IMG/VR virus record: IMGVR_UViG_3300046168_000050
From: a virus
Reading direction: 5' to 3' (one strand)
Length of the DNA stretch: 64,000 nt
The first letter of the stretch is position 1, and each line of letters opens with the position of its first letter. The translations under genes were made by a program, and so were the position numbers. A model generated the notes under the pieces. It saw only the letters and a program-made list of their open reading frames with translations, had not been told where the DNA came from and did not search any database. Positions 1 through 18,428 of this stretch are shown here, piece by piece.

Positions 1-917
1 AGTGTACCAGCAGCAGTTAAGCGACCTTGTTGATCTACAGTAAACGTTGGAATAGCAGAAGCAGAGCCATAAGAACCTGGAGTTACTGCTGTGTTAGATA
101 GAGTTACAATTAATTCATCAGCAGCATGAGAGGTTTCGATACCTGTGCCACCAGATAAGGTAAGAGTGTCTCCTAAGTCAACTGCCGTACCAGTACCTGC
201 ATCAGAAGCAATACCAATAGTACTATTATCAAGTTGACTGTTGCCAATTGAGTTAATAGTAACTTCACCAGTACCTGATACGTCAAAGTCAGCTGATGCA
301 AACGATGCAACACCAACCGCTGAAGTTGTAGCTAAGTCACCGCTAATAGTTACTGTATTGTTAGTAACAGTAGTTGAAATACCGCTTGTACCCAAGAAGC
401 TAAGATCAGAATCAGCGATATTAACTACATCAGTACCAGTATCACCCGCAATGTCAATAGTCTTGGCACCAGCAATAAAGTCAACATATTCTTTTGTGGT
501 AAGAGAGTTTGTGCCAAAGCCTGATCTATCTTTATATCCAGCTGGAACGTTAACTGCGCCTGTACCGTTGGGGGTTAGGGTAAGAGCAGTGTCAGCAGCT
601 GTAATGGAGATAGTTGATCCGTCAATGTCAATATTATCAACTTTTAAGTTATCTATTTTACTGTTAGCGTCAACTAAAAGTGCACTCGAGGCTGTAAGTA
701 CACCTAAAGCATGATCTAGTTTATCAGTAAAATATGAACCGCCAATAACTTCAATATTGGCTGCTACACCTGCCGTTTCAGTTCCTGTGCCGATATATAG
801 TCTATCACCACCGGATACAACTGAATGGTCAGCATAGCTGTATGCCATTTCTCCGTTTCGTAAAGCCGATGGGGCGCCACTAGTACCCGATCTTTTTATC
901 TTAATTATAGATGCCAT
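1..917 (-). CDS. Tail fibre protein, 5' part (runs off the window; missing from the ORF track)
   Basis: ATG at 917-915 overlaps the upstream TAA (TAATG). Reads MASIIKIKRSGTSGAPSALRNGEMAYS..., a common phage fibre N-terminus, then repeats shared with the 5200..9228 fibre (GVASF.S.DFDV...VTINSIGN.Q.DNS; TAVTPGSYGS...IPTFTVD..GRLT). Open to position 1. Confidence 0.85.
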   Translation of the reverse strand, partial: MASIIKIKRSGTSGAPSALRNGEMAYSYADHSVVSGGDRLYIGTGTETAGVAANIEVIGGSYFTDKLDHALGVLTASSALLVDANSKIDNLKVDNIDIDGSTISITAADTALTLTPNGTGAVNVPAGYKDRSGFGTNSLTTKEYVDFIAGAKTIDIAGDTGTDVVNIADSDLSFLGTSGISTTVTNNTVTISGDLATTSAVGVASFASADFDVSGTGEVTINSIGNSQLDNSTIGIASDAGTGTAVDLGDTLTLSGGTGIETSHAADELIVTLSNTAVTPGSYGSASAIPTFTVDQQGRLTAAGT

Positions 918-1225
918 TAATAAAAGCCCCCGTCTTGACTTATTTCTACATTACCCAGTTCATTTCCTGCTGCCCATTTGTCACTCGCCGAATCATAGAT
1001 AATTAATGAACCATCTGCTAAACTTGTAAAGTCTACATTTAAATTTTCAAACCTAACCTTACTAAAGGATAGGTTCCCTGCGCCATCTGTTGTCATTACA
1101 GATCCCGCTGAGTCTGCATCTACAGTCGGATAACTTAACTCTCCAACTTGCAGCGAACCGCGAAATACTGCAGAGTCCGTGACATCTAAACCGGTTTTTA
1201 TGACAAACTTTTGTTTAATCGCCAT
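917..1225 (-). CDS. Small virion/fibre-associated protein
   Basis: YPTVD..AGSVMTTDGAGNLSF fibre motif and C-terminal DGGFY. Preceded by a late promoter and SD AGGAG. Confidence 0.7.
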   Translation of the reverse strand: MAIKQKFVIKTGLDVTDSAVFRGSLQVGELSYPTVDADSAGSVMTTDGAGNLSFSKVRFENLNVDFTSLADGSLIIYDSASDKWAAGNELGNVEISQDGGFY

Positions 1226-1262
1226 ATGCTTAGAGACTCCTATTCATGACAAATATTACCTT

Positions 1263-1270
1263 TATTTATA
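1263..1270 (-). promoter_or_regulatory. T4-type late promoter TATAAATA
   Basis: Exact TATAAATA on the minus strand in the gap upstream of 917..1225. Confidence 0.8.
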
Positions 1271-1281
1271 TGTTTTTTCTT

Positions 1282-2199
1282 TTATGCTTCAATGTTTATT
1301 CTTTTTGCCTTGACTATTGTATTAACGTAATACGGTGTAACAATTAACTCAAATTGCTCATCTTGTATCCGCGCATCAATTATTCCTAAATCAGAGTCAG
1401 TTTGCAGCACGCCATATTCAGTCATATAAACATTAGTATTATCATGTGTAAATAAAACTTCAGAAGAATAATACTTATTGTTATCAGTTTCATGAAGCGA
1501 TATTAAATATTTAAGTGACCTATATTGGTCTGCAGAAAAAGTATCAACTACATAGTCAGCAGTAGTTAATCCTGGTTCTGGCATATCTGCATCTAATTCA
1601 AATAAAGACGCTCCTTTAGCCCTCTCCAAAACATATGCCGAATCAAAAAAGTTTTCTAATCCTGGCGCCGTCTGAGTAGAATCATAAATATAATTATCAC
1701 CTCGAATCCAGTCATTAATTGTGTCAATAGTTCTGGCTGAATCAAATTTAGATAAAGGAACTAATTGGCTTGAATCCACTGGCTGGCCAGGAACAGGTGC
1801 GGGCCCTACAGAAAGTGTTCCACCGCCTCCATCTGCTAGGACGGTTCCTCCTAAGAAGATTGTCTCACCAGCTAGAAATAATTCTTTAAATCTTTTTGTA
1901 GGAGAACCTAAATTGTAAGCAATGTCAGTATCAGGTACCATATTACCGGTAACAATAGTACCACCAGAATCTACATTATCAGTGATTCCTGACAAAACAA
2001 TATTTGTAGGCTTATTAGTGAGGTTTTCATAGTTTCGATAAAACCCCGGAGAATCTCCACCTAAGGTAGCCGCGTCATAAAAAACCTGATCAACAGATTT
2101 TATAGGAGTACCAACCATCACCTTTTTTACAATGGTAGTGCTTTCAGATACTCTTATCTCGGGGTTTTGATTTACCTTTACTACATATTTGTCAGACAT
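1282..2199 (-). CDS. Virion structural (fibre/baseplate-associated) protein
   Basis: GNMVPDTDIAYNLGSPTKRFKELFL motif and a C-terminal DTF...YRSLKYLI...SEVL..HD...YMTEYG beta domain typical of marine T4-like structural proteins. Confidence 0.7.
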   Translation of the reverse strand: MSDKYVVKVNQNPEIRVSESTTIVKKVMVGTPIKSVDQVFYDAATLGGDSPGFYRNYENLTNKPTNIVLSGITDNVDSGGTIVTGNMVPDTDIAYNLGSPTKRFKELFLAGETIFLGGTVLADGGGGTLSVGPAPVPGQPVDSSQLVPLSKFDSARTIDTINDWIRGDNYIYDSTQTAPGLENFFDSAYVLERAKGASLFELDADMPEPGLTTADYVVDTFSADQYRSLKYLISLHETDNNKYYSSEVLFTHDNTNVYMTEYGVLQTDSDLGIIDARIQDEQFELIVTPYYVNTIVKAKRINIEA

Positions 2200-2203
2200 T
2201 CAC

Positions 2204-2557
2204 TCACCTAGTTACAGAAGGAGTCACTTGGGCTCTTCCTTCTAATATCCGCTCGATAATTGTATTATTGTCTGAATCCTGATATTGTAGCTCCACATCA
2301 TAAACATAGCGACCGGCTTTCAATGCATCTGTTTGAGTGTTTGAAAGACTTAAAGTAATTTTGCCATCAGTAGCAGGGGTAGCTACAATACCTGTAAAGT
2401 CTACCGTGTCTGCACTATCACTGTTATAGGATTTTTTGAGTTTAGCGGATACTGTATGATTAGTCAGGTCCTTTGTCGAACCATCTAATGCAACTAGATG
2501 TACTTCTATTGCTACATCGGCCCCTTGGTCGATGGTAAATTCTTCATACTGGGCCAT
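2204..2557 (-). CDS. BppU-N/Ig-like baseplate-associated protein
   Basis: IDQGAD...DLT......K......G.I.LSL...QT..L..GRYVYDVE......R..EG...V.P.VT signature. Confidence 0.7.
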   Translation of the reverse strand: MAQYEEFTIDQGADVAIEVHLVALDGSTKDLTNHTVSAKLKKSYNSDSADTVDFTGIVATPATDGKITLSLSNTQTDALKAGRYVYDVELQYQDSDNNTIIERILEGRAQVTPSVTR

Positions 2558-2615
2558 AGAATTCCTCGCTGATTCATTTGTCGGTACACTATCGCACCCT
2601 GCCGCTATTTGATGT

Positions 2616-3102: not shown

Positions 3103-4854
3103 CTATGCTTGGTTAAAAGAAAACTCTACTGTAACATCTTGTCCTGTGTCTCCACTAGCAAATCTATCCCCAGTATAAGTAACTGGACCTGATACACTTG
3201 AGGAAGAGGATGTTGCAGCATCTCTAAAGATATACGCATGAACTTCCGGAGACCATGCGAAACTTTGTACTGTATAAGAATCACTAGTATGAGAGCTTAA
3301 AGGAAAAGTAAAAATCCCTTGTTTATTAGACCACTTAAGTTTAAAAACAATGTTACCTAAAGCGTTGGGTTTAAGTGTCGGTTGTGATTGCCGGCCTCCA
3401 ATCATGTCTCCAGAAGATGTGTACCCTCCATTAGAATTTTCATTGTAAAGGCTTATAAAAAAATAAAAACTCGCGCCGGTGACCCAGGTGGTAGGGTCTG
3501 TTCCGGAAGGTACGCTGGTACTTTGAGATAAATTTACTCTATTAGTAATTGCAGATAAGTTTATTTCCGGTCTCCACCCCTCATATATTCCTGCTCCTGA
3601 TCCTAATCTAGGCAACTGAGATTGATAGTTTTCTCTATACGGTATAATAGTTTTAACTGCAAGTAAATCAGTTGTAGAGGTATCAAATCTAATAGTGCGA
3701 GATCCATTATATTTCATGGAATATATGTCTGATGATGTTGTATTAGTAATTTTCATAGGAGTTTGTCCTAAGAATCCCCAAGGATCAGGATTATCAGCTG
3801 GATAGAATGTATACGGGTAATTACCTACTGGAATGCCTCCAGAAGCTGCTCCATAAAACTCAGAAAAACTAGATTGCGCTTCAGAGGCTTTATTTATTAA
3901 TGCTCTTACATCTTCATCATTTATAGTTACTGTAGTTTCGCCGACACCTTCATCTAAATACGCTATTATGACTGCTCCTGAGTGCCCCGAACCGCTATAG
4001 TTTGTACCACCTTCAGCGGCAACTCCCCCTCCACCGGCACCATAAGCTAGCCCAGGCGAAGCTGACCCGGCCTGTCCGCTACTATGTTGAACGCCGCGAC
4101 CTCCTTGGAAAGTATTAGATACTGCTACTTGGCCATTTTTTAAAGTAAATTCATTAGGAAAAGCTGGTGCAGATGAGTATTGACCAAAGTGCGGACCTCC
4201 AGCCCCTCCGATCTCTATACCATTTAATCCAGACACAGATTGACCAACTAAGTTTGCAGAACCTCCACCTTTTGCGCCTGATCCATCACCACCTCTAGTT
4301 AAAAGAGTGGATCCTCCACCAGTATAATTATCCATACCGCCTGATCCAACTCCTCCGTTACTCTCATGAGCATAACCCCAACCATTTACATAAACATCGC
4401 TGTTGTCACCGTTAGCTGGATCTGTAGCAGATCCATAACCACGCTCTCCTCCAGATGCGCTAATAGTTGTTCCAACATTAGGATCAAAAGTTGTAGTACC
4501 ACCAGACCGGCCTGATCTTCTACCTCCACCACCGGCGGCAGATACACTAGCACCTCCAGAACCAATAGTAACAGAAAAACTTGATATACCAGAAGATCTA
4601 TAATAAGTTCTTACTGCAGTACCTCCAGCACCGCCTCCTGTAGCAACCTTTTCTCTACCGGCATCTGTACTAGCTGCCCCACCACTACCGCCACCTCCAA
4701 TAGCAAAGACTTTAATGGACGTCCAATCATTATTAGTTCTTAAGTTATAAGAGCCGCTAGCAGAGAATATTCCAACCGCTACCGCACCAGTAAATCCTGC
4801 TGCTTCTTGATGTATGTTATTAAGAGAGATAGGTCCAGATTCTTGTAAAGCCAT
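3103..4854 (-). CDS. Glycine-rich fibre-tip/adhesin-like protein
   Basis: MALQESGPISLNNIH N-terminus and a Gly-rich GGGGSGG/GGGAGG domain. Lies two genes after the S74 fibre. Confidence 0.7.
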   Translation of the reverse strand: MALQESGPISLNNIHQEAAGFTGAVAVGIFSASGSYNLRTNNDWTSIKVFAIGGGGSGGAASTDAGREKVATGGGAGGTAVRTYYRSSGISSFSVTIGSGGASVSAAGGGGRRSGRSGGTTTFDPNVGTTISASGGERGYGSATDPANGDNSDVYVNGWGYAHESNGGVGSGGMDNYTGGGSTLLTRGGDGSGAKGGGSANLVGQSVSGLNGIEIGGAGGPHFGQYSSAPAFPNEFTLKNGQVAVSNTFQGGRGVQHSSGQAGSASPGLAYGAGGGGVAAEGGTNYSGSGHSGAVIIAYLDEGVGETTVTINDEDVRALINKASEAQSSFSEFYGAASGGIPVGNYPYTFYPADNPDPWGFLGQTPMKITNTTSSDIYSMKYNGSRTIRFDTSTTDLLAVKTIIPYRENYQSQLPRLGSGAGIYEGWRPEINLSAITNRVNLSQSTSVPSGTDPTTWVTGASFYFFISLYNENSNGGYTSSGDMIGGRQSQPTLKPNALGNIVFKLKWSNKQGIFTFPLSSHTSDSYTVQSFAWSPEVHAYIFRDAATSSSSSVSGPVTYTGDRFASGDTGQDVTVEFSFNQA

Positions 4855-5198
4855 TACACATACCTCATATATTCTTCATCTGAATCCCAAACTCTACTCA
4901 ACGCCCAAGAAGTAGACGAACTATCCCAGATATAATCTTCTGTTGCTGTTCCCGGATAAGCAACAGGAGCAATATACTCATAAGTAGATGAATCTAATAT
5001 ATAGCCCCCTACAGGAGAGGTTGCCCAATATACAGCTTGTAAGTTAGTATCATAATACTTACCTATTTCACCTGATCCTTGTACATCAGAGTCTAAGACT
5101 GCCCAATCTATAAACGATGCAACAGATCCTAAAGAATCTACATCAATAATATTTTCAATAATATTAGTATGAGTGTTAATAACTAAAGCAGTTTTCAC
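4854..5198 (-). CDS. Small fibre-associated protein
   Basis: GTG start; resembles the small acidic Trp/Tyr-rich ORFs beside Gly-rich fibres (IG..YD...., APVAYP....Y.WD). Confidence 0.6.
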   Translation of the reverse strand: MKTALVINTHTNIIENIIDVDSLGSVASFIDWAVLDSDVQGSGEIGKYYDTNLQAVYWATSPVGGYILDSSTYEYIAPVAYPGTATEDYIWDSSSTSWALSRVWDSDEEYMRYV

Positions 5199-5199
5199 G

Positions 5200-8100
5200 T
5201 TATCTACCTTGCAATTCTTTTTTTAGTTTATCTATCTGAACTTGTTGATCTTTAATAGCTTCAATTAGTAAAGGAACTATTCTTTCGTATCTAACCGTCA
5301 GGTAATCTTCACCTGACTTAGAGTTACCATCTTCATCTGTATCAAATGGAGCTGAAGTTACAGCATCCGGAATTACTTTTTGGATTTCTTGAGCAATAAC
5401 ACCATGTTCATCTTTTGATTCCGGAGTAAAGCCTACAGCTGTTGCAGCTTCCTCGTTCCAGGTATAACTATAACCACCAATGCTTTTTAATTTTCTAATA
5501 GGATCAGAAATAACTGCTATATTTTCTTTTAATCTCTCATCTGAAGAATAAGCTGTAATATTACCTGTAGCAGAGAAAGAACCGGTATATGAGCCGGACA
5601 TTTTTACTTCATCGGCTGCTACAGTAATACCATTTCCTGCTCCTACATTAATAGTTCTATTAACGTTTAGTGTGCCTCCGCCGGTTAATCCATTACCGGC
5701 AGTAACTCCTGTATTAGTCTCAAACGTTAAATCAAACGGATCTGTATTAGAACCTGGATTAGTGTCCGTCCAGATAATCCTAACTCCGCCACCTTCTCTA
5801 AATTTCCACTCTTTATTGTGTGAAATAGTAACTTCAGTACCATCATGATCTTCAACTTGAAATGTAGTTAATTGGTTTGTGTCCGTTACAGTTTCTGTGG
5901 CAGTACTAATACCAGTAACATGTCCATATGTATCTAACATAATATCTTGAATATATGTTCTACCACTATTATTCGAAGATCCTTGGTCGGATGTATCTGT
6001 GTGACTGATAGTCATTCTGTCACTAGCAGCATCAGAAGCAAGAGTAATACCTCCTCCTGCTCTAATATAGAAAATATCATCATTAACACCCGCTGTAATA
6101 ACGTCTAGATCAGAGCCATCAGCTGCTTCCGGTATAATTCTTTTAAATATACTCTGAAGAGAACCTCTATCTACATTAGTAAAAGTAAGCTGATCATCAG
6201 CTGTCTTTTCTATTTGCATCCCCGTCCCTTGCTCAAAATGCAAGGTGTCGCCAGAAGTTATAGTACCTGTTTCGCCTCCATTACCTTCTAAAAACGACCA
6301 TGAAACATAGTTATCAAAAGTGCCTAGTGCAGGAATCATAACTGTTTTTGTATTAACACCTGTAACATGCCCTCTTGCGTTTGAAGTAAGACTGTCAATA
6401 GCCGTAAACGTACCTCCAAATGCAGGAGCACTTGCATTATTTGTATTAGTTCTTGTTATATTATCATGGTCGATAGTTAATGTTTGATTAGTACTCTGAT
6501 TAGTTGTAAATGTCCTATCTGTTTCATCAAAGTGAAGGTCACTGCCAGCTGCTAATGTAATAGTAGCATCACCTACAGTCACTGAACCCGAAACTATATC
6601 AGTAATGTGACCGTATGTGTCTAAAGAGATATCTTGAATAAAGCTGTTGCCTGTATTATTAACTGATCCTTGAGAAGAAGTGTCGGTATGAGCAAATTCA
6701 CCTGTAGAGCTATTATATGATAATCCCCCGCCCGCATTTAACCAACCAGCGGTTGCTACTCTTGTATAAACAGGGTCGTTACCTTCACCAACCTGCCAGT
6801 AATCATTAGCTTCATTCCACCTTAATTGTACGTTGGTACTATTACCTCTTTCAATCTCAATACCACCGTTCTGTGTTGGAGTATTAGCTGCATTAGAGTT
6901 AAGCAAAATAATATTGTCAGCAATAGCTACAGTCTCAGTGTTAACTGTAGTAGTGGTGCCAGATATTGTTAGATTTCCATCAATAACCGCATTACCAGTA
7001 ACATCTAAGTTACGGCCTACAAATACATCTTGACCTGTGGTAAGGTCTGTAGTTACAGTAACACTGCTTGGTAAACCCACGGTGGCAGAAGATCCTTCAC
7101 CTGGCGTGTGACTTACTTCTATTTCATTGGCAGTACCTGAGATACCAGACATATAATTACCGGTAGTTTCAGTACCTAGAATTACACCATTATCTTTAAT
7201 GGTAACAACTCCGTTAGATACAGAGAAGTTATCAGTACTAAATGAAGCTACACCTTTATTAGTGCTTGTCGCAAGCTCTGCTGATATAGTTACTTTATTA
7301 TTAGTTACTGCAGCGTTAATACCTTCACCTTCAGAAAACCTAAGTTTGTCATTTAAAAGATCAACTGCATCAGAATCTAAACTATCATCGCTTATAGTAA
7401 GTGTAGTAGCAATACTTACCGGAGTTACGTTAGTAAGTCTACCTTTACCATCTACAGTAAATGATGGAATAGAAGTTGTAGATCCATATGAACCAGCTGT
7501 TACTGTTGTATCATCTAATACAAAATCAAGAGTGCCATCTCCGTCTTGATATGTGACTGTAATATCTGTTTCAGTATTACCGGTAACCATGGCGCCAACC
7601 ATGTCCTGAATAGCTTCATCGCTAATAGTGATAGTAGCTCCAGTGGTAAAATCAGTAGTGTCTAGATTAGCGTATGCAACTAATCGGCTTGGAGTTGCAG
7701 CGTTGTTATAAGACGCTTCCCAATAATCGCTAGTTTCATTCCATTGGATTACGGCGCTATCTTGTGTACCTCTATCAATGGAAATACCAGCATTGGCCGA
7801 AGGAGCTCCAGTTGTACCATCTAAAAGTTCAACAAAAGCTGAAGCCAATTTTTGAGCGCCAGTTATAATAAAATCACCGCCGATTGTAAAGTTTCCACCT
7901 ATTCCAAGATCATTAGTTATAGTAACATTATTAGGTAAACCTACGGTCACTGTCCCGTTAGTTCTAGAAACCTCTACTTCATTAGTTGTTCCGTCTATTC
8001 CTAAAACCGCGCCGGTTGTAAGGTTAGCCAGGGTTACATTGCCATTAGATACAGCAAAATCTCCGTTATCAAACTTGGCAGCGCCTATATTAGTATCAGA

Positions 8101-9228: not shown

Positions 9229-9436
9229 TTGCGAAACTTTCTGTTAATTTTTGTAGCATCATCTTTATATCCTGTACGTCTGATTTTAGAGCTTCAATCT
9301 CTTGGCGCTGCTGTAATTCACGATCTCTTTTTTCAATAAACGCATTAGTATTATCTTTATTTATATTCAAAATCATACCAGTACTTTTATCTCTTGCAAG
9401 ATCTGGATAACCATCTACAGAAATATAACCACTCAT
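9221..9436 (-). CDS. Conserved small coiled-coil protein following DUF4815
   Basis: V.GYPDLARD..TG.I.N....LKSDV.DIK.ML..L pattern common in marine T4-likes. Confidence 0.7.
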   Translation of the reverse strand: MSGYISVDGYPDLARDKSTGMILNINKDNTNAFIEKRDRELQQRQEIEALKSDVQDIKMMLQKLTESFANA

Positions 9437-11094
9437 TATACAGTTGCAATAGTTCTAAGATTTTTAAATAGCGGAATATGAGTAGATTTACTACTGTTCA
9501 TTGTAATTTTAATCTGATATTTGCTAAATAAAGGTAAATCATACTTATTAAACTCATAGGTTCTTGGCATATTGTCTCTTGGCTGGTCTGCATAATTAGA
9601 CACGTCCGGAGTATTAATAGTCTTACTAAACTCTACCCAATTATTAGCTTCAATATTGGTATCATCTCCACTTGTTCTGTACCAAACAGAAAAATCACTG
9701 AATTGCGGCCTAATAGCATCTATTAGCACTCGCAATGATGTTGCTGCAAGCTCAAGACTATAAACAATAGAAAGATGTTTTGCCGCCGTAGTTCCGCCGT
9801 TTGGTTCCGTTTCAAGAGTAAATGGTACAGTAGAGATAAGGTTTCTATTGGGAGTAGTTGTAGCAGCTTGGTAGTCAATAAAATTACTAGTAATACGCAT
9901 TGCTGCAGCGTGCTCATTAATATAAGGAGACGTGTATTTATGTTGAGTAGTAAAGCCAACTCTAATTTTAGTAGAGGGATTACCTGAATTATGATCTGTT
10001 TCAGATTGCGCGCTAGCAATCACTGCCGGGTTTTTAAATCCTTGAACATAATTCTTTTTAATTCTAACATCTGCAATATTAGAATATGCGGTTTCATTAC
10101 CACCGAAAGATTTAGATGCTAAAAAATCACCTACTGCAAACATGTTTGTTTTAGGAGGAGTAACTGCAGGTAAAATTGTTTGAAACTGATCGACAACATA
10201 TTGCTCAGTTGCTAGTACTCCAGCTCCGCCGGCTCTAATGGACGCAGTAGCATTAGCAGATCCACCACAATTAAATGTGTAACCATAAGGATCAGCCGCA
10301 GTAATAGTTTTAGTGCCATACAAATTAGATCCGGTTATACCATTAATAGTATCACTGCTGTCAAATCCATTTGACCCTTTAGATAAGACTACTTTATCAC
10401 CAACTTGAAATCCATGAGCAGGATGAACTACATCTACTAATTTACTTCCCGCCGTAAAAATAAAAGGGTCTGCCGGATATTTAGTGTTATCATCAATTAG
10501 TGTCTGTTCAGTTAATCTTTTTGCTGGTGGAGCGTCTGCGTGAAAAACGGCAAAACTATTTTGCTGAGTAAATTCAGCTCTGTAAACTTTATATGCTAAA
10601 TCTTTCTCATTGTCTGGCCGCCAAGAAGTACCGTTTGATGACTCGTAAAATGCGCCGCGTTCAATGGTAGACGAAAAGAATTCTGTTGTCGAGTTAGTAA
10701 GATGTTCGCCGTTTTTACCTACCCAAATTTTATACTGATCTGCAGAAGCGCCGGTACTAATAACAAGCGCAAGTAATGTATTACCTGCTATATAGACAGG
10801 CTCTCTAAAACTAAATTTAACTTCAGCAGCAGAGGCAAAGTTTGTATTAGCAGCCGCAGCAACAGTTGAGGCTGCAACCGTTACCTTTGTACCTTGAATA
10901 AATTTCTTAGCACTTGGCGCTCCTGATTCGGCACAAGGTCTCAATTCAATAGAAACTGGTTGAGCAGAAGAGCCTGTTGGAGCTTGAGCAAAGAAAAGAC
11001 CTACTCCAGTAAGAACTGATCCGACAGGCTCATCAACCACAAACGTCTGTGCTGATGGGTTGAGCTGTTCACTTAATTGTAATTTACCTGACAT
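9436..11094 (-). CDS. DUF4815/VrlC-like virion protein, C-terminal part
   Basis: P.AQTF.V, F.F.EPVY, S.NG.SW...DL.YKVYRAEF, and the ending F.KYQIKI.M.S...P.FKNLRTIA. Confidence 0.8.
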   Translation of the reverse strand: MSGKLQLSEQLNPSAQTFVVDEPVGSVLTGVGLFFAQAPTGSSAQPVSIELRPCAESGAPSAKKFIQGTKVTVAASTVAAAANTNFASAAEVKFSFREPVYIAGNTLLALVISTGASADQYKIWVGKNGEHLTNSTTEFFSSTIERGAFYESSNGTSWRPDNEKDLAYKVYRAEFTQQNSFAVFHADAPPAKRLTEQTLIDDNTKYPADPFIFTAGSKLVDVVHPAHGFQVGDKVVLSKGSNGFDSSDTINGITGSNLYGTKTITAADPYGYTFNCGGSANATASIRAGGAGVLATEQYVVDQFQTILPAVTPPKTNMFAVGDFLASKSFGGNETAYSNIADVRIKKNYVQGFKNPAVIASAQSETDHNSGNPSTKIRVGFTTQHKYTSPYINEHAAAMRITSNFIDYQAATTTPNRNLISTVPFTLETEPNGGTTAAKHLSIVYSLELAATSLRVLIDAIRPQFSDFSVWYRTSGDDTNIEANNWVEFSKTINTPDVSNYADQPRDNMPRTYEFNKYDLPLFSKYQIKITMNSSKSTHIPLFKNLRTIATV

Positions 11095-11118
11095 TTAAAT
11101 TTCTTTCTATATAGTAAG

Positions 11119-11934
11119 TTAGAACCAACTATTGGTATCCATCCAACTGCTAGTAGTAGTAGTAGTAGTAGTTGGTCTAGCACTAGGTCTAGCGGATGAG
11201 GTCCAAGTGTCTCCAAAAAAACCACCGGCGCCGGCATCCGAAATGCTTGGACCTGTATCAGTAGAACCAAAAAAATACTCATAATCCGTGCTTATACTCG
11301 GACCTGTATCATTATCATTACCTGAAGTAATTGTTGGGCCTGGCGCTGGGGGCGGATCATCTTCCCACACTTCATATTCTACTTCTACGTCAACACTATA
11401 AGTTTCCATTGAATAATTAATAAACTGGCCAATCGAAGAGTATTCTGCCGTAGCATGAGATAGGGCCGCCGCTTTATCAGTTGTAGAAATATTAATAGCT
11501 AAAAGAGGAATACTGTTATCACCCCCATTGTAGCTATAATTTGTTGATCCTGTACCACATCTCCAGCTGTAAGTTGAATTACTTTGTAAAAAAAGCACTC
11601 CTTCCAATTCACCTGAAGCAGTAGTAGTAAGAGGAGTGCCAGAAGGTCCTCCGAGATCTGAAGGAAACTGCGTCTCAAACAAATATTTATCGCCTGGATT
11701 TCTAAACACAGAACTACGAGCTGAAGCATTAAAATCATTAATACTAAAACTTGTATTAGCAAATGCTGTCACGTCTCTATTTTGTAAAAATAACCAATGA
11801 TTATCATTAGGTCTTAAACCTGAAAACTTAAAGTAAATAAAACGAGATCTAAATGCAGGATTAAAATCATATCCGTTATCTAATTCTCTTACTCTAGATT
11901 CTTGTTCTATTTTTGTTGCTGTTACCCAGGGCAT
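11119..11934 (-). CDS. DUF4815/VrlC-like virion protein, middle part, with low-complexity tail
   Basis: FRSR.I.F...GLRPN.....F....V...L.T...G.L.G motif; Pro/Thr/Ser-rich C-tail. Confidence 0.7.
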   Translation of the reverse strand: MPWVTATKIEQESRVRELDNGYDFNPAFRSRFIYFKFSGLRPNDNHWLFLQNRDVTAFANTSFSINDFNASARSSVFRNPGDKYLFETQFPSDLGGPSGTPLTTTASGELEGVLFLQSNSTYSWRCGTGSTNYSYNGGDNSIPLLAINISTTDKAAALSHATAEYSSIGQFINYSMETYSVDVEVEYEVWEDDPPPAPGPTITSGNDNDTGPSISTDYEYFFGSTDTGPSISDAGAGGFFGDTWTSSARPSARPTTTTTTTSSWMDTNSWF

Positions 11935-14867
11935 TATGCTTCCTCGTTCTGATTACCTTGAGAAAGAACAACCGTATCACCTTGTGTAGTGAGCGATTCA
12001 TTATGCTCTCCTACATGGTTAACGTCAACTTCTCTTCTCATTTCATATGTATCAACTGCCGGCTCAACGAATCCTGAACCAATAAACTTAACAAGTTCAA
12101 ATCTATTTACACTTTGATATCCAGTTGCCTTGTCCTGATTGACCATAACAGTTTCAGTAAAGTTTGGCCAAATAGTACTACCATGCAGAGCCACTCCGCT
12201 TGATGCAGCAGAATCATATTTAAGGCCAATATCTCTCCAGTATCTCATCGGCGCTAGGACGCCAGATTTCTTACGAATAGCAGCCTTGTAATCATTATCT
12301 GTTACTTTAGATTGAATGTTATTAGTAAACGTGTCTCCTGTCATTCCTTGTTTCACACGATCAGGTATAACTGTCCGTTCTAGTTCAATTTCAGCAAGTG
12401 AAAGCGAAGTTAACTCTTCTACATTTTCCACACGTCTTTCAATCTTGCGGATATCTGACATTTTATAACCACGGTTATCATACTTAGACTGCATAAGGTC
12501 GCGCTCATTAAGATGATAAGGAGCCAACATAATTCTATGTAATCTCATAGACGAAGAAGGAACTCCTTCAGGATCACTGGGAGATAAGCTTGTTACTCCC
12601 GTATGCACTTCAAGATTACCATTATTATTAATAGCTACTATATCTACTCTAGGCTCCCATATAGACACCTCACCAATATCAATCGTATCAGTATTTCTTG
12701 GAACATATTGAATTACTGCTCCTGTACCAGCAAAATCGTCACCGGTATTATCTTTTACAGATCTTAGATCCATAACGTCTGATAGCCTTACAGTAGCACC
12801 TGTTTCAGTATTATAATATGGAATCTTATCGTATTCTAAATCTGGATAAGATGCGCCGCCAGCAAAATAATCTCCGGTAGTATGATCAAAGCTATCAAAG
12901 GTAACGACTACATTACCTGAAGGGGCAGCGGCACCACCTTTAAGTTTACCAGATCCTACAGTATAGAAATTATCGCGCTGGCCGTTATCGAAAATAAATC
13001 TATGAGTAATGTCCTCACTTGTCGTGCTATCTACGACGCTTTTAAATTTATAAATGTCATGATGAGAAAGTGTAAATTTACCCCCAGAAAGCGCTAGCGT
13101 TTGAGTTCGGTCAACAACAAGAGTTTTAGTTTTTCTTACTGCAGTTTTTCTTTCATATCCAAACAATCTAACTGATCCATTAGTAAGGCCAGTAATAGTT
13201 GCTGAAGACGTAGGAGTACCTGATACTGTAGGAGGAGAAATAAGATTATTATTATTTGCCACTTCTTCTACAATCCATTGCTCTTGATCAGCAAATGTAT
13301 TTCCGCCTGTAGAGAACGTAGCTGAATTATTGGACGCAGTGGCTGTATATACTTTACCTATATTTAAAGTTACAGATCCATCTTTAACTGTATTAATTCT
13401 TCCAGGTAAAGGAAATAATAGATTATTTTCTAACTTATCAATAATATCATAGTTGCTATTAATAGCCACAATGTTACCATAGCTATTAGCACTAGTACCT
13501 ACGCTACGAGCATTTCTTAGTGAGTTAGAGCCGTACATTTCAACATCAAAAACGTGTAATCTAAAATCATTATCGAACTCATCAATATTTCTAATTCTAG
13601 CTCTACCTATAGAACTACCGCTTGTTGCAGTGCCGCTATAGATTCCTACAGAATCATATCCGTTAATTACATCAAGAAGACCTTTAGTATTAGCACCATC
13701 AGTTAAAAAGTAATTACCATATCTCGCTGAAATAAATTCATTATTTTTAGTTGTTATGTCGTCTACAAGATTTCTTGGTTTAGCTACTTTAATAGGAGCT
13801 AAGTTTTGCTTGTCATATCTCTTTCCGTTAACAAAGGCTGTACCATCTGAAACTTGGTACCAAAGATAATCTGAACTATCTGGCTTAGTTGAGATAGTAA
13901 GGTCAAGGGAACCAAGCCTTTCATCCACAATAAAGTTGCCATTAGTATCATTAGCTCTGTTGTATATAATACCACCTAGAGTTGATAACACATTATCCGC
14001 GGTTTGTACATTGGTGACATAACCTTGATTAAGTTTCATAAGCGGATAAAATGTTTTACCGGCAGTTTTATCTGCTTCTTTTTTTAGCGTAAGGGTAATT
14101 CTTAGTCTATCAGCTCCCGGAGAAGTTAAGTTAGGAGTAGCGCCGGAGTTGTCATATAATGCAACATTATCAGATGTGTTGTAAATTTCTTGTGTAACTT
14201 CAAAACCCACAGTACCATTAAACTGAGGGTTAAACTTGTCTAGTACCAGTGACTGTTTTTCTACGAACAAAATATGTCCGGCGGCAAAGGTATTAAATTC
14301 AGGAACTTCTAAGAATGAGGCATTACCAATAGCATCTTGCACCTGTTCATCCGTAGATACACTCAGCTCGTAAGAAGTGGATCTAATGGTAGCTGTTAAT
14401 GTATCAGCTGGATTAAATTTAACAGAAACTGTAGTATCTTCAGAGGTAGTAGAATTAGCGTCGATATATTTTACTAGTAAAGTATTATAAACATCTGTAC
14501 CAACAGAGCTATTTACAGAAGTAGAAGGAATAACAGCTTTTATTATAGCCTTTACGCCATTTTGATTAGAGAATGTTTCCCCGACAAATACATCATAGCC
14601 CACTGGAAGTGTAGATACCCGTACGAAACCAATAGGATCGTTTGCACTGTTTGATGTGCCGTAAGAAGTATTAAATAACCCACCAGGAGTAAAAATAAAT
14701 TTAGCAATACGCTCAATTTCTTTTTGAATAATCGTCTGAGATTGAGTTAATTCTCTTGCCTGCAGAGCTCTTCCGTTATTAAAAAGAATTCTATGATAGT
14801 GATCGCTATCACGATAATCATCGTTGTAGGAGCCAAGAAATGTATTTTCGTTTACCGTAGTTGCCAT
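11934..14867 (-). CDS. DUF4815/VrlC-like virion protein, N-terminal part
   Basis: Y.DDY....YHRILF..GRALQARELTQ.Q.I.Q, L.DN..G.PN..SPGADRL, and Y.MSDI.K.E.R..N.E..TSLSL.E motifs. Confidence 0.88.
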   Translation of the reverse strand: MATTVNENTFLGSYNDDYRDSDHYHRILFNNGRALQARELTQSQTIIQKEIERIAKFIFTPGGLFNTSYGTSNSANDPIGFVRVSTLPVGYDVFVGETFSNQNGVKAIIKAVIPSTSVNSSVGTDVYNTLLVKYIDANSTTSEDTTVSVKFNPADTLTATIRSTSYELSVSTDEQVQDAIGNASFLEVPEFNTFAAGHILFVEKQSLVLDKFNPQFNGTVGFEVTQEIYNTSDNVALYDNSGATPNLTSPGADRLRITLTLKKEADKTAGKTFYPLMKLNQGYVTNVQTADNVLSTLGGIIYNRANDTNGNFIVDERLGSLDLTISTKPDSSDYLWYQVSDGTAFVNGKRYDKQNLAPIKVAKPRNLVDDITTKNNEFISARYGNYFLTDGANTKGLLDVINGYDSVGIYSGTATSGSSIGRARIRNIDEFDNDFRLHVFDVEMYGSNSLRNARSVGTSANSYGNIVAINSNYDIIDKLENNLLFPLPGRINTVKDGSVTLNIGKVYTATASNNSATFSTGGNTFADQEQWIVEEVANNNNLISPPTVSGTPTSSATITGLTNGSVRLFGYERKTAVRKTKTLVVDRTQTLALSGGKFTLSHHDIYKFKSVVDSTTSEDITHRFIFDNGQRDNFYTVGSGKLKGGAAAPSGNVVVTFDSFDHTTGDYFAGGASYPDLEYDKIPYYNTETGATVRLSDVMDLRSVKDNTGDDFAGTGAVIQYVPRNTDTIDIGEVSIWEPRVDIVAINNNGNLEVHTGVTSLSPSDPEGVPSSSMRLHRIMLAPYHLNERDLMQSKYDNRGYKMSDIRKIERRVENVEELTSLSLAEIELERTVIPDRVKQGMTGDTFTNNIQSKVTDNDYKAAIRKKSGVLAPMRYWRDIGLKYDSAASSGVALHGSTIWPNFTETVMVNQDKATGYQSVNRFELVKFIGSGFVEPAVDTYEMRREVDVNHVGEHNESLTTQGDTVVLSQGNQNEEA

Positions 14868-14876: not shown

Positions 14877-16376
14877 TTATAGTCTTACTACAACTTTAAT
14901 ATCTTCTGTTTGCTGAGGATCCCGGGCAGTAGCTGATTGATTGCTAACAAACAAAACTTCACCAGAAAATCTATCAACATCTGGAGCAATGTTAGCGGAA
15001 TCAATAGTTAAACTACCTGATATTTTGCCAGGAACAGTAACAGCTTCACCATCTACAAACGCGGTAAATCCAGTTTCTTCTGTCTGATGATACCAAATAG
15101 TAGCGCTGTCGTCGTTCCATGCCATGTAACCTTGGGCGTTACTATCTGTACCAAATATAATAGGATCATCATCAAATTCTAACTGATATTCGCCTGACGC
15201 CTGTAGATAATCTCCATCACCAAACGCCAAGTTAGCTCTCATTTTCTTAAGAGCTGTTCCTGCTTCTGCAGTAAATAATGTGCCATTAGCACTGTCTTTA
15301 ATATTCTTGATTAATCCGATTTGCCTATAGTCCTGATCAACCGGCCATGTGGGGCTGTTATTAACATTAACGCCACCAACAGGCTTAATATTGAACATCA
15401 GAGATGTTGACCTGAGATCTTTTCTTGCATCAGCTCCAGTTCCTGCTATGGGGCCAAAAACAGGAGCAATAACAGCATCGGTACCACCAGCTTGTAGATT
15501 AGTAGCACTTACGTTTATATTAGCATAATCATAACCAGATCCCTGATCTGCTACAAAGGAAATAGCTCCAGCATCTGGGCTATCACCAACTTCTACGGCT
15601 GCAATTGAATTATTAATTGGATTTAAAATAGCATAAGCTTTTGCGTTAACACCATTTCCCACGACAGTAAGAGCCGGGCCTACCTTTTGCCCGGAAGAAT
15701 GAACAGTGCCCGTGTAAGGTCCGCCAGGAGTGATTACTCGATATCCTATAATTTGTCCAGGTACTGCAGCATTTTGAACTGAAAGCTGAGAGAATCTAGG
15801 GTCTGTTAATTCAGCTGAATCTACGAACTCTACAGGCATAAAATTAGTTGTTAAAAAATTATTAGCAGCTGCAGTCGTAATAGTATACATGTATTTCCAC
15901 ACATAACCATCTGTTTCAGGTGCAAGAGTTATATTAGTATGATCCGGTTTTACTGTAGAAGTTTTAGGAGTACCGTCACTGTTTTTACCTTTGCGCAAAC
16001 AAATGTAAACTTTGTTTTCATCTGTTCTTATATAGTAAGTATTTTGAGGCTGGCCTGATATAGCATCGCTGTACTGATAATATTCTTTATTAGGCGACCA
16101 GTCATAGTCTGGCCCACCTGGAATTACGAATGAAAGATTTTCTGCAGCTTTGACTGATTGTAAATTATATCTAAATAATCTTTCTTCTCTGTCGTGGTTG
16201 TCAGCAGCTGTAGTATTAGGTACTACATCGGTTTGAGCCTCTGCTTGCCATTGTTGCGATCTACCTACTCCAATATAATAGTAATTATTGGAGTCACCAA
16301 TATTAGCTGTGTTAAACTCGTCAAAAATAGTTTGAGCTAATTGTAATTTAATTTTATCTGTAATTATCGCTGCCAT
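14877..16376 (-). CDS. gp8: Baseplate wedge subunit gp8
   Basis: MAAIITDK, YY.GVGRS..W, VY.CL, DGYVWKYMYTI, DYRQIGLIKN, SGEVLF..N....R...Q.EDIKVV. Confidence 0.9.
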   Translation of the reverse strand: MAAIITDKIKLQLAQTIFDEFNTANIGDSNNYYYIGVGRSQQWQAEAQTDVVPNTTAADNHDREERLFRYNLQSVKAAENLSFVIPGGPDYDWSPNKEYYQYSDAISGQPQNTYYIRTDENKVYICLRKGKNSDGTPKTSTVKPDHTNITLAPETDGYVWKYMYTITTAAANNFLTTNFMPVEFVDSAELTDPRFSQLSVQNAAVPGQIIGYRVITPGGPYTGTVHSSGQKVGPALTVVGNGVNAKAYAILNPINNSIAAVEVGDSPDAGAISFVADQGSGYDYANINVSATNLQAGGTDAVIAPVFGPIAGTGADARKDLRSTSLMFNIKPVGGVNVNNSPTWPVDQDYRQIGLIKNIKDSANGTLFTAEAGTALKKMRANLAFGDGDYLQASGEYQLEFDDDPIIFGTDSNAQGYMAWNDDSATIWYHQTEETGFTAFVDGEAVTVPGKISGSLTIDSANIAPDVDRFSGEVLFVSNQSATARDPQQTEDIKVVVRL

Positions 16377-16388
16377 TGTTATACCCTA

Positions 16389-17348
16389 TTAAGAAATTGT
16401 ATAGCCTTCACCACCAATAACGCTCCACTGAGAGCCATTCCAAATAATCATAACCGTATCATTTGGTGATAGTGCAATACTAGTTCCTTGAGAAAAATTA
16501 GTTGGAGTAACCGTTGTGGTATTAGCTCCGTCATGGGTAAATACCTTTACTTCACCCGTTGTTAATCCATTATCTACTGTAGCAACAATATTAGCTGTTG
16601 CTGTACTTTGAATATAACTTATATTTTGAGCTACAGTGCCTGTTGAGCTAATAGTACCTGAAGAATAAGCAAGTTTACTAACTCTTACTGAACCAGCTCC
16701 TTTGGGATTAAGCTCTAAATTAATATTAGTGTCTGCAGATCCCTCTGTAGAAATAATAGGAGAATCAGGAGAAGCTTTGCTCTCAATCCTTAATCTATTT
16801 CTAGCATTTACTGTATCAGTAAACGATATGACTGGATGCCCATTCGAATCTGCTAACCATTCATGAACGTTAGCTCTTTTTAGCGTAGGTAGATTTAAAG
16901 TTTTATTTGTAAGAGACTGTGTATCAGTAGTACCGACAACTACCCCGGCTGGAATAGTTTTACGACTGGCTGCCCCATCAATAATTCCTGAAGCATTAGA
17001 TAGAATAAAACTAGAAGTAGCAAGTCCAGATAATGTATTATCATCAGCGCTAATGGTTTTGTTCGTAAGTGTTTGAGTGGCCGTATCAACTACTACGTTA
17101 CCAGCTGAATCAGGAAAATCAATATTAATTGTCGAAGCCGGATCAGCAGCTCCTACCTGCGTAATAAAGCTGCTTCCTACGATAGAAATACCGCTGTCCG
17201 TAAGTCGTGTAACATTACCTAAAGTTGCACCACCAAACTGGTTGTACAACTCTGTAAAATTATTATTAATTTTATTGCCAGCAGCTCTAAGGGTATCGCC
17301 TGTACCATCATTAGCCGCCGAGCCAACATTAATTGCTTCTTGAACCAT
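16389..17348 (-). CDS. gp9/gp10-like baseplate tail-fibre connector
   Basis: N-terminal INVGSAANDGTGDTLRAAGNKINNNFTELY, the T4 gp9/gp10 motif; TQTLTNKT repeats. Confidence 0.8.
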   Translation of the reverse strand: MVQEAINVGSAANDGTGDTLRAAGNKINNNFTELYNQFGGATLGNVTRLTDSGISIVGSSFITQVGAADPASTINIDFPDSAGNVVVDTATQTLTNKTISADDNTLSGLATSSFILSNASGIIDGAASRKTIPAGVVVGTTDTQSLTNKTLNLPTLKRANVHEWLADSNGHPVISFTDTVNARNRLRIESKASPDSPIISTEGSADTNINLELNPKGAGSVRVSKLAYSSGTISSTGTVAQNISYIQSTATANIVATVDNGLTTGEVKVFTHDGANTTTVTPTNFSQGTSIALSPNDTVMIIWNGSQWSVIGGEGYTIS

Positions 17349-17372
17349 ATCTGTGCCTTAATTGATTAACAT

Positions 17373-17380
17373 TATTTATA
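17373..17380 (-). promoter_or_regulatory. T4-type late promoter TATAAATA
   Basis: Exact match upstream of 16389..17348. Confidence 0.8.
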
Positions 17381-17392
17381 TAGGTAATTAGT

Positions 17393-18428
17393 CTAATTCG
17401 CTGAATCATATTGAGTATCGTATATACCTTTATCAAATGTTTGTGTATATGTTTTAAGTTTAGTAGCACTTGAATCCTCGTCAAAGCTAACAAGAGTAAC
17501 GACATCAGAGTCATCCATAGTAAGTGAGTTAGGTGACAACAATTCAGCAAACGTATAATTATCAATATCGCCTAGTACCACATCTTTTGCAATGGATACA
17601 AATGTATCAACATCTTGGCGATGTACGGTGAATGTTGCATCACCATGATTAAGTAGAGTAATATCTTTATCAGCTCTAATATCAAACGATGCTACAACCT
17701 GAATAGAAATAAATTCTGCTGGTTTTTCACCGACATCATCTTGTAATACTGGCAGAGGATTTATATTAGCCGCTTCTATTACTAATTCTGAGCCAATAAA
17801 AAATCCAGCAGGGTGTACAAATAATTTATATGTATCTATCCACTTACCTACAGGAATTGTGCTGCGAAGAAGTATTGAAAGAGTTTGATATAATTTATCA
17901 TTTGTTATATAGCGTAAAGATTCCGGGCCAAGATTTGAAGCCCTCTCTTTAACTTGTTCGCCCCGCAGTGTTAACGCTGTCTTTCTCGAGGTCAATGGCC
18001 GGGCCAACTCTAAAAACATTTTCTTTAGGATAAATTACTTCTGGATCTACGCCAAAAAAACCTCTAAAAAATTGCTCGATACTATACTTAGTGCCTTTAG
18101 ACCTATATAGTGTATTAGAAAACTTTACTGCTTCTCTTTTATTAATAAATCCACCAAAATATGCTTCCCCTAAGAGCAGTTCATCTTCAAGAAAAGGAAG
18201 TTGCATCTTAGGAATAGAAGTAGCATCTCGAGTAGAATAAATTCTATTTAAAATACCATTAGGATTTGAATCTTTTTCCATCCATTCATAGTAAGATTCA
18301 AACAATTCTATAAGATTAGGATTGTCCTGAACTATATGGTCAGGTAATACTTTTTTAACCTCAGCCCTATGAAAAGGAAGAGCCTTGCGATTATTGTCAA
18401 GTAATGTAAGATCTCTTTTATGTGACAT
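17393..18428 (-). CDS. gp7: Baseplate wedge initiator gp7-like, split by a one-base frameshift near 17961-17964
   Basis: 5' ORF has LP......PN...L.E.YYEWME and YRSKGTKYSI..FFR.FFG...E..YP. 3' ORF has Y.TLS..........W.D.YK.FVHPAGF. Removing one G from GCGGGGCG joins them (..NTAG-EQVKER..). Confidence 0.75.

What the first reader, a model, noticed from the sequence alone, without database searches (positions are those of the whole stretch)
917..18428. Asp-Ser motif enrichment in fibre and baseplate proteins: candidate sequons for phage-encoded virion O-glycosylation
Seen (hand counts of DS): 3 in 102 aa (917..1225, all DSA), 7 in 305 aa (1282..2199), 2 in 117 aa (2204..2557), 5 in 114 aa (4854..5198), about 10 in the long fibre (LDSA, ADSA, EDSA, QDSA, LDSD), 7 in gp8 (four DSA), 4 in the gp9-like protein and 5 in gp7 (ending YDSAN). 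For comparison: about 2 in NrdA (552 aa), 1 in gp32, none seen in RNase H and 2 in gp6. Known: D-(S/T)-(A/L/V/I/M/T) is the Bacteroidetes O-glycosylation sequon, and glycosylated virions are known in some actinophages. Inference: outward-facing virion proteins carry DS acceptor sites for the soluble glycosyltransferases at 43.8-51.7 kb, forming a sequon-directed glycan coat.
Basis: partly seen in the sequence, partly recalled or inferred. Interest (0 to 1): 0.82.

Follow-up and report, generated by a model that had tools for sequence, protein, structure and literature searches.

The report
Asp-Ser-Ala/Asp tag on phage fibres
The tail fibres and outer baseplate proteins of this uncultured marine T4-like phage carry the short motif Asp-Ser-(Ala/Asp) four to six times more often than chance, and the motif travels with a small flagellin-glycosylase-like enzyme, so it may mark serines for a phage-made sugar coat, although no modification has been shown.

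Summary
Asp-Ser alone is a weak signal in this window: 1.43 times expectation in the chosen proteins and 1.02 over the whole virion module.

The sharper motif hydrophobic-Asp-Ser-(Ala/Asp) is a strong signal. There are 24 sites against 5.4 expected in 917-18428, none in the inner baseplate and hub, and no excess in enzymes. Asp-Ser-Ala is the top tripeptide. Its serine codons come from both codon families, so the signal is at the protein level.

Baseplate and fibre loci of relatives with gp8 at 34% identity or more show a median 4.6-fold excess. More distant relatives show 0.8-fold.

Thr, Glu or Asn variants and aliphatic third residues are depleted, so this is not the Bacteroidetes sequon.

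The 43.8-51.7 kb cluster has a conserved core: a 198-aa protein whose best structural match is the flagellin O-glycosyltransferase Maf, plus four GT8/GT25-type enzymes. The core brackets a variable sugar cassette. Only the Maf-like gene recurs with the motif in two other phages, C48C1 and the unrelated siphovirus DSL-LC06.

Sequon-directed virion glycosylation is therefore credible but unproven (about 0.4). A structural motif, or a DNA or host-surface role for the transferases, remains open. The scan noted the same signal earlier in at least eight other genomes.

The parts
917..1225 (-). 102-aa fibre-associated protein with three DSA sites
   Evidence: DS[AD] 3 against 0.21 expected. A late-promoter motif lies at 1263-1270.
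1282..2199 (-). 305-aa fibre/connector-like protein with 7 DS, of which 3 are DS[AD]
   Evidence: DS 7 against 1.9, shuffle p 0.001. Matches phrog_967, baseplate wedge tail fibre connector.
2204..2557 (-). 117-aa fibre-assembly-like protein with 2 DS[AD]
   Evidence: Matches phrog_1084 and phrog_3304. DS[AD] 2 against 0.18.
4854..5198 (-). 114-aa protein with 5 DS, of which 2 are DSD, each after a hydrophobic residue
   Evidence: DS 5 against 1.4, shuffle p 0.005.
5200..9228 (-). 1342-aa long tail fibre with 4 DSA and 1 DSD in repeat-like contexts, and a C-terminal chaperone domain
   Evidence: Matches tail-fibre PHROGs. DS[AD] 5 against 1.5. Site contexts. The C-terminus matches PDB 6f45.
11934..14867 (-). 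977-aa large baseplate/fibre-anchor protein (phrog_358) with 2 DS[AD]
14877..16376 (-). gp8 baseplate wedge protein with 7 DS, four of them DSA
   Evidence: phrog_438 at 1e-63. Weak match to PDB 9f4a and 1n7z. In the AF2 model (pLDDT 81.7), six of seven DS sites lie in loops directly after beta strands. DSA at residue 186 is conserved in the clade.
16389..17348 (-). gp9/10-like baseplate-fibre connector with 4 DS, one of them DSA
   Evidence: Pfam T4_gp9_10_N. The FP-DSA-G site is conserved in the group with about 52% gp8 identity.
17393..18428 (-). Outer baseplate protein, split here into two overlapping ORFs; 5 DS, ends YDSAN
   Evidence: Relatives have a single 344-aa ORF.
43804..44400 (-). 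198-aa Maf/sialyltransferase-fold protein. It belongs to the conserved core and is the only gene that follows the motif across lineages.
   Evidence: AF2 pLDDT 91. Best match among 48,161 PDB representatives is Maf 5mu5_A (Z 11.2, 161 residues, rmsd 3.4 A); Cst-I scores Z 10.2. Present in 67 of 80 loci. Homologues occur in C48C1 and DSL-LC06.
44397..46355 (-). Three conserved GT-A enzymes: one GT8-like (216 aa), and two GT25 (213 and 230 aa)
   Evidence: Pfam. Present in 66, 78 and 80 of 80 loci. No transmembrane segment.
46352..50885 (-). Variable sugar cassette: methyltransferase, NAD epimerase/dehydratase, unknown, UDP-galactopyranose mutase, unknown, methyltransferase
   Evidence: Pfam. 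Present in only 9 to 38 of 80 related loci.
50887..51681 (-). Conserved GT8 glycosyltransferase that closes the cluster
   Evidence: Pfam PF01501, 25.6 bits. Present in 61 of 80 loci.

Best explanation
Hydrophobic-Asp-Ser-(Ala/Asp) is a lineage-specific tag written into tail fibres and outer baseplate proteins (gp8, gp9/10-like, the gp7-region proteins and the fibre adaptors). It most likely marks serines for O-linked modification in the cytoplasm by a phage-encoded system.

The proposed reader or initiating enzyme is the 198-aa Maf/sialyltransferase-fold protein at 43804..44400. The adjacent conserved GT25 and GT8 enzymes would extend the glycan. The variable cassette (UDP-galactopyranose mutase, epimerase, methyltransferases) would supply and diversify the sugars.

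Shown: the motif, its specificity, its distribution, the fold, and the co-occurrence. Inferred: that serine is modified, that the modification is a glycan, which enzyme reads the tag, and what the coat does.
For: Motif strength and level:
- DS[AD] is 24 against 5.4 in 917-18428, 0 against 2.7 in the inner baseplate and hub, and 5 against 5.2 in enzymes.
- DSA is the top tripeptide.
- Serine is encoded by both TCN and AGY codons, so selection acts on the protein.

Motif specificity:
- DTA, DTD, ESA, NSA and DSV/L/I/M/T all fall between 0.3 and 0.8 times expectation.

Diversity of sites:
- There are 120 non-redundant contexts.
- In gp8, sites are gained at different columns in different sub-lineages, and one column is fixed in the clade but variable outside it.
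- Six of seven gp8 DS sites lie in loops just after strands.

On/off distribution:
- 36 clade loci have a median 4.6x excess (range 2.0-8.8). 43 outgroup loci have a median 0.8x (range 0-2.2).

Link to the cluster:
- All 13 records that hold both the cluster core and gp8 are enriched 2.6-7.7x.
- The core protein w43804 best matches Maf.
- Its only GenBank homologues are in C48C1, where two fibre proteins have 15 against 3.2 and 5 against 0.8, and in the unrelated siphovirus DSL-LC06. In DSL-LC06, DSA ranks 2nd of 4277 tripeptides and DSAG is 8 against 0.22, with sites in the major capsid and major tail proteins.
- The Maf-like gene is absent from the non-enriched records G013 (81% complete), G014 and G017.

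Precedents:
- Maf enzymes O-glycosylate exposed Ser/Thr of flagellins (PMC11339370 abstract).
- SdgB/SdgA glycosylate Ser in Asp-Ser repeats (PMC3794999).
Against: - No modification has been observed.
- The co-occurrence rests on only two or three independent lineages, and most contigs are fragments.
- The Maf likeness is by fold only. Cst-I sialyltransferase (Z 10.2) is effectively tied with it. No Pfam PF01973 hit or PDB sequence hit was found. The protein lacks Maf's flanking domains.
- No nonulosonic-acid genes were seen among the window proteins searched.
- The cluster lies among early genes and lacks the TATAAATA motif that precedes the virion genes.
- Several peripheral proteins carry no tag: 3103..4854, 9436..11094 and 11119..11934.
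- In G008 a primase-like protein has 2 sites, so specificity is not absolute.
- Many fibre sites sit in repeat-like strand-turn-strand contexts, which a structural role could also explain.
Confidence: 0.4

Rival explanations
1. The motif is a structural or assembly element with no covalent modification. It could be a favoured strand-end turn or cap in beta-rich trimeric fibres and wedge proteins, or a site read by a fibre-assembly chaperone. It would be inherited and spread by module exchange within one clade. Its link to the glycosyltransferase cluster would then be shared ancestry only.
For: - Sites follow hydrophobic strand residues and precede T/V/I-rich strands.
- Fibre sites recur in repeat-like units such as L.A-DSA-T.GT.KV and Y-DSA-TGQF.
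- The gp8 sites are hairpin or post-strand loops.
- Within the T4-like phages the co-occurrence is confounded by phylogeny.
Against: - The same folds in outgroup phages show no excess.
- Chemically similar turns (DTA, NSA, DSG, ESA) are not enriched.
- The inner baseplate and hub and the portal lack the motif.
- The motif reappears on unrelated folds (HK97-type capsid and siphovirus tail tube) in DSL-LC06, which shares only the Maf-like gene.
Confidence: 0.27
2. The tag is real but is read by something else, such as another serine modification or a binding partner. The 43.8-51.7 kb transferases would then act on DNA bases or on the host envelope rather than on virion proteins.
For: - The cluster lies among replication and nucleotide genes (PhoH, RNase H, NrdAB) without late promoters.
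- Phage clusters that combine several glycosyltransferases with a UDP-galactopyranose mutase glycosylate cytosine derivatives in DNA (PMC13326640).
- An earlier scan note, not tested here, reports a hydroxymethylcytosine cassette in this genome.
- For glycosyltransferases in pelagimyophages the published proposal is modification of the host O-chain (PMC7029224).
Against: - The known DNA glycosyltransferases in that paper are GT-B-like by their structural matches, whereas these are GT-A and Maf-like.
- The cluster proteins lack membrane segments.
- The Maf-like gene tracks the protein motif in DSL-LC06 and C48C1.
Confidence: 0.2
3. The excess is a by-product of composition, hand-picking of proteins, paralogous repeats or a DNA-level word.
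For: - DS alone is 1.02x over the full virion module.
- DS ranks only 5th of 400 dipeptides in the chosen interval.
- Part of the raw contrast with the enzymes is Asp and Ser content.
Against: - DSA has p 7e-9 in the window, and p 1e-70 in a set made non-redundant at 40% identity.
- There are 120 distinct contexts.
- Codon usage at the sites is mixed.
- The outgroup shows no excess.
Confidence: 0.03
4. The sites are literal Bacteroidetes-type D-(S/T)-(A/I/L/V/M/T) sequons, read by a host general O-glycosylation system.
For: DSA fits that consensus.
Against: - Thr variants and aliphatic third residues are depleted, while DSD is enriched.
- From established knowledge, that system acts on exported proteins, whereas virions assemble in the cytoplasm.
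- The host is unknown.
Confidence: 0.02

Closest known systems
Maf (motility accessory factor) flagellin O-glycosyltransferases, e.g. Magnetospirillum Maf, PDB 5mu5
   Same: It is the best structural match of the conserved core protein 43804..44400 (Z 11.2). Both are cytoplasmic enzymes, and Maf modifies exposed Ser/Thr of a filament-forming protein before assembly.
   Different: The phage protein has only about 198 residues and corresponds to Maf's central domain alone. There is no sequence-level family hit. No nonulosonic-acid pathway was seen. The acceptor would be virion proteins with a strict D-S-(A/D) tag, whereas no comparably strict motif is known to me for flagellin glycosylation.
SdgB/SdgA glycosylation of staphylococcal Ser-Asp repeat adhesins (PMC3794999)
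   Same: Serine flanked by Asp is the acceptor. Transferases add the sugars stepwise. The coat protects surface adhesins from proteases.
   Different: The staphylococcal system acts on long tandem SD repeats and uses different enzymes. Here the sites are isolated, sit in loops, and usually have Ala at +1.
Mycobacteriophage virion glycosylation (Freeman et al. 2023, cited in PMC12801897; paper not held)
   Same: Phage-encoded glycosyltransferases decorate the phage's own virion proteins.
   Different: From my recollection of that paper, the transferase genes there lie beside the structural genes and the targets are capsid and tail tube. Here the tag is on fibres and outer baseplate, and the genes lie in the early region.
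Bacteroidetes general O-glycosylation sequon D-(S/T)-(A/I/L/V/M/T)
   Same: A three-residue tag starting with Asp-Ser, with Ala allowed at the third position.
   Different: Thr is excluded, aliphatic third residues are depleted and Asp is accepted. Modification would take place in the cytoplasm rather than the periplasm.
Glycosyltransferase-rich variable regions of pelagimyophages and cyanomyophages (Zaragoza-Solas et al. 2020, PMC7029224)
   Same: Uncultured marine T4-like phages with many GT8-type transferases and LPS-like sugar genes in variable cassettes.
   Different: That work proposes host O-chain modification and does not describe a protein tag. This cluster lies outside the fibre region.
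Phage DNA base glycosylation clusters (RB69, DLP3, RL38J1; PMC13326640)
   Same: Several transferases plus nucleotide-sugar enzymes, including a UDP-galactopyranose mutase, in the early region of a contractile-tail phage.
   Different: Those transferases match GT-B enzymes. A DNA role would not explain the protein motif.

Membership tests
Bacteroidetes O-glycosylation sequon | Ser or Thr accepted at position 2 | tested here: not met
   DTA is 0.72x, DTD 0.51x, and DTV/L/I/T 0.5-1.0x in the non-redundant clade set.
Bacteroidetes O-glycosylation sequon | Third residue A/I/L/V/M/T | tested here: not met
   Only Ala is enriched (5.5x). V, L, I, M and T are at 0.3-0.8x. Asp, which is not in the consensus, is at 3.4x.
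Bacteroidetes O-glycosylation sequon | Acts on exported proteins of a Bacteroidetes host | not tested
   The host is unknown, and signal peptides in the virion proteins were not examined.
Maf flagellin glycosyltransferases | Central catalytic domain fold | tested here: met
   5mu5_A is the top hit among 48,161 PDB representatives (Z 11.2, 161 residues aligned, rmsd 3.4 A). GT42 Cst-I at Z 10.2 is effectively tied.
Maf flagellin glycosyltransferases | Sequence membership in Pfam PF01973 (MptE-like / Maf) | tested here: inconclusive
   There is no Pfam hit for the protein or for 34 distant family members. The profile gives no hit against PDB sequences. In the ESM Atlas, the nearest named cluster has PF01973 in 13% of its members.
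Maf flagellin glycosyltransferases | N- and C-terminal domains flanking the catalytic domain | tested here: not met
   The protein has 198 residues and aligns only to residues 271-506 of the 632-residue Maf.
Maf flagellin glycosyltransferases | CMP-nonulosonic acid donor pathway present | tested here: inconclusive
   No such gene was found among the window proteins searched with Pfam or PHROGs. Not every ORF of the window was searched, and the rest of the genome was not available.
Phage virion glycosylation (mycobacteriophage type) | Phage-encoded glycosyltransferases | tested here: met
   Two GT25 proteins, one GT8 protein above the Pfam cutoff and one weak GT8-like match (15.9 bits, cutoff 24.3), and the Maf-like protein.
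Phage virion glycosylation (mycobacteriophage type) | Glycan detected on virion proteins | not testable with these tools
   This needs mass spectrometry or glycan staining.
SdgA/SdgB Ser-Asp repeat glycosylation | Long tandem Ser-Asp repeats as acceptor | tested here: not met
   Sites are isolated, with 120 distinct contexts.
Phage DNA base glycosylation cluster | GT-B-type DNA glycosyltransferases next to a thymidylate-synthase-like hydroxylase or hydroxymethylase | tested here: inconclusive
The transferases here are GT-A or Maf-like.

The most novel reading that the evidence does not exclude
A large clade of abundant, uncultured marine T4-like phages O-glycosylates its own fibres and outer baseplate. 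It does so at a strict hydrophobic-Asp-Ser-(Ala/Asp) sequon, using a miniature Maf-type enzyme. A hypervariable sugar cassette diversifies the glycan between strains. The same enzyme-tag pair has been taken up by at least one unrelated siphovirus, where it marks the capsid and tail tube.
Probability: 0.35. Interest if true: 0.85.

Novelty: new variant of a known kind. Interest (0 to 1): 0.7.

Why it matters
If the tag is a sequon, it would be the first sequence-defined glycosylation code for phage virions, and it would occur in a widespread group of ocean phages. Glycosylated sites could then be predicted directly from metagenomes.

It would give the many unexplained glycosyltransferase genes of marine T4-like phages a function. 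It would also suggest that fibre glycans take part in host recognition, protease resistance or stability in seawater. A compact enzyme-tag pair could be useful for glyco-engineering.

If the tag turns out to be purely structural, it is still a clean lineage marker.

Tried and rejected
- DNA-level word: rejected, because the 21 DSA sites of the window use mixed Asp, Ser (TCN and AGY) and Ala codons.
- Simple paralogy or repeats: rejected as the whole explanation. The excess persists after clustering at 40% identity and spans 120 distinct contexts.
- Full Bacteroidetes sequon D[ST][ALVIMT]: not enriched. It is 41 against 31.7 in the interval and 52 against 49.9 in the virion module.
- GT25 as the tracking enzyme: it fits inside the clade. 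However, no homologue exists in 50,697 GenBank phages, and C48C1 and DSL-LC06 lack it.
- UDP-galactopyranose mutase as the tracker: rejected. It is present in only 9 of 80 related loci, and absent from G008.
- A solved structure for the DSA-bearing fibre repeats: none found. Only the C-terminal chaperone domain matches the PDB.
Scans of viral contigs with three distant members found nothing, and an alignment of distant members could not be run because it had no stretch conserved enough to search with.
- The window's own assembly is not held, so head, neck and upstream fibre genes of this phage could not be read. The complete relative G008 was used instead.

Full report
**What the window is.** It is part of an uncultured T4-like myovirus. 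The minus strand from 3 to 29443 encodes fibres and baseplate. These include:
- gp8 at 14877..16376 (phrog_438, 1e-63);
- gp6 at 18428..20437;
- gp25-like, gp5-like and hub proteins;
- a 1342-aa long fibre.

No GenBank phage is close. The best gp8 match is phage C48C1 at 31.7% identity. The window's own assembly is not held.

After correction for each protein's composition, DS alone is a modest signal in this window:
- 51 against 35.6 in 917-18428 (1.43x, p about 0.009, rank 5 of 400 dipeptides);
- 1.02x over the whole virion module;
- 1.02x in the remaining proteins.

Three proteins are individually notable: 1282..2199, 4854..5198 and gp8. The long fibre and the 977-aa protein are not.

The degenerate Bacteroidetes pattern D[ST][ALVIMT] is not enriched. 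One tripeptide is. DSA occurs 17 times against 2.8 expected, or 6.1 under a first-order model. It is the top tripeptide, with p 7e-9. The sites use mixed codons, including both serine codon families, so the constraint acts on the protein.

With Asp also allowed at the third position, the window has:
- 24 sites against 5.4 expected in 917-18428;
- none against 2.7 in the inner baseplate, hub and tail-tip region 18428-29443;
- 5 against 5.2 in non-virion proteins.

**Relatives.** A gp8 search gave 80 viral contigs. The DSA excess is 4.8x at 88-100% gp8 identity, 6.3x at about 52%, 3.6x at 34-40%, and 1.1x at 26-31%.

For DS[A/D], the 36 clade loci have a median 4.6x (range 2.0-8.8). The 43 outgroup loci have a median 0.8x (range 0-2.2). 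The two sets barely overlap.

In a set made non-redundant at 40% identity (194 proteins, 75,000 residues):
- DS is the top dipeptide (1.38x);
- DSA is the top tripeptide (179 against 32.8);
- DSD is second (117 against 34.5);
- Leu, Ile or Val is favoured before the Asp.

In the same set DT-x, ES-x, NS-x and DS-(V/L/I/M/T) are all depleted. The outgroup shows none of this.

**Sites in gp8.** One DSA column is kept through the clade but is variable outside it. Other DSA sites arise at different columns in different sub-lineages. In an AF2 model (pLDDT 81.7), six of the seven DS sites lie in loops directly after beta strands, and one DSA fills a hairpin turn.

**Sites in fibres.** Many sites sit in repeat-like strand-turn-strand units. 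Even so, 120 distinct contexts exist.

**A complete relative.** In G008 (157 kb), gp8, the fibres and the large anchor protein carry most of the sites, and the sheath has a few. Portal, terminase, polymerase and helicase have none.

**The transferase cluster.** Genes from 43804 to 51681 are tightly packed on the minus strand and encode proteins without membrane segments. By Pfam they are:
- one weak GT8-like protein (15.9 bits, below the 24.3 cutoff) and one GT8 protein;
- two GT25 proteins;
- two methyltransferases;
- an NAD epimerase/dehydratase;
- a UDP-galactopyranose mutase;
- three proteins with no family.

Across 80 related loci the cluster has a conserved core. The core is the 198-aa unknown at 43804..44400, the GT8-like protein, both GT25 proteins and the terminal GT8. 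It brackets a cassette that varies from phage to phage.

The 198-aa protein folds with pLDDT 91. In a search of 48,161 PDB representatives its best match is the flagellin O-glycosyltransferase Maf (5mu5, Z 11.2). This is followed closely by Cst-I sialyltransferase, SteA and MptE. Foldseek points to the same neighbourhood, but weakly. No sequence-level family hit exists.

**Co-occurrence.**
- All 13 viral records that hold both the cluster core and gp8 belong to the enriched group.
- The non-enriched records, including one that is 81% complete, lack both GT25 and the Maf-like gene.
- GT25 homologues are absent from all 50,697 GenBank phages.

Inside the T4-like phages this link is confounded by ancestry.

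The Maf-like gene has two GenBank homologues. The first is in C48C1, which lacks GT25. There, two fibre proteins have 15 against 3.2 and 5 against 0.8 sites.

The second is in the unrelated 30-kb siphovirus DSL-LC06. There, DSA ranks second of 4277 tripeptides and DSAG occurs 8 times against 0.22 expected. The sites include the major capsid protein, the major tail protein and the distal tail proteins. Only the Maf-like gene is shared between these phages and the window.

**Points against a virion-glycosylation reading.**
- No modification has been seen.
- The cluster lies among PhoH, RNase H and NrdAB and lacks the TATAAATA motif found just upstream of the virion genes.
- Clusters of transferases with a galactopyranose mutase are documented for DNA base glycosylation (PMC13326640).
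- Host O-chain modification is the published proposal for such genes in pelagimyophages (PMC7029224).
- Some peripheral proteins carry no tag.

**Verdict.** It is not the Bacteroidetes sequon. A serine-modification tag read by the Maf-like enzyme is the best single explanation (about 0.4). A purely structural motif (about 0.27) and a different role for the transferases (about 0.2) remain open.

No paper in the held library describes this tag. Earlier notes of this scan report the same signal in at least eight other genomes. I tested their Maf lead here and it held. Their GT25 lead held only within the clade.

Noticed in passing
window 17393-18428: The outer baseplate gene is split into two overlapping ORFs (159 and 208 aa). 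In relatives, including a near-identical contig, it is a single 344-aa ORF. This is either a frameshift or an assembly error near 17950-18020.
   Followed up: partly
window 5209-5571: The long fibre ends in an intramolecular chaperone domain. It resembles the one in the phage S16 long-tail-fibre distal subunit (PDB 6f45) and in MYRF (7dc3), with the usual Ser-Asp-x-Arg-x-Lys start.
   Followed up: partly
window 9436-14867: Three consecutive ORFs (977, 271 and 552 aa) match successive parts of one 2056-position profile (phrog_358). A giant baseplate/fibre-anchor protein therefore appears to be divided into three genes here and in relatives.
   Followed up: no
window 46352-50885: The cassette between the conserved transferases differs between close relatives: the mutase is in 9 of 80 loci and the epimerase in 19 of 80. 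It behaves like a hypervariable glycan-diversifying island.
   Followed up: partly
L184 (phage DSL-LC06, OR003941.1): A 30-kb freshwater siphovirus carries DSAG eight times in virion proteins, including the major capsid and major tail proteins. It also has a Maf-like gene, several transferases and FkbM-type methyltransferases.
   Followed up: partly
window 55428-55859: A SegE-type GIY-YIG homing endonuclease gene lies between the RNase H and NrdA genes.
   Followed up: no
window 57706-58678: The NrdB ORF starts at TTG and matches only positions 76-272 of the Pfam profile. An 86-aa ORF overlaps its start. The gene may be split or mis-started.
   Followed up: no
window 3103-4854: A 583-aa glycine-rich-domain protein (Gly-Gly 30 against 17.7 expected, 77 Ser) sits among the fibre genes but has no DS[A/D] site at all.
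   Followed up: no
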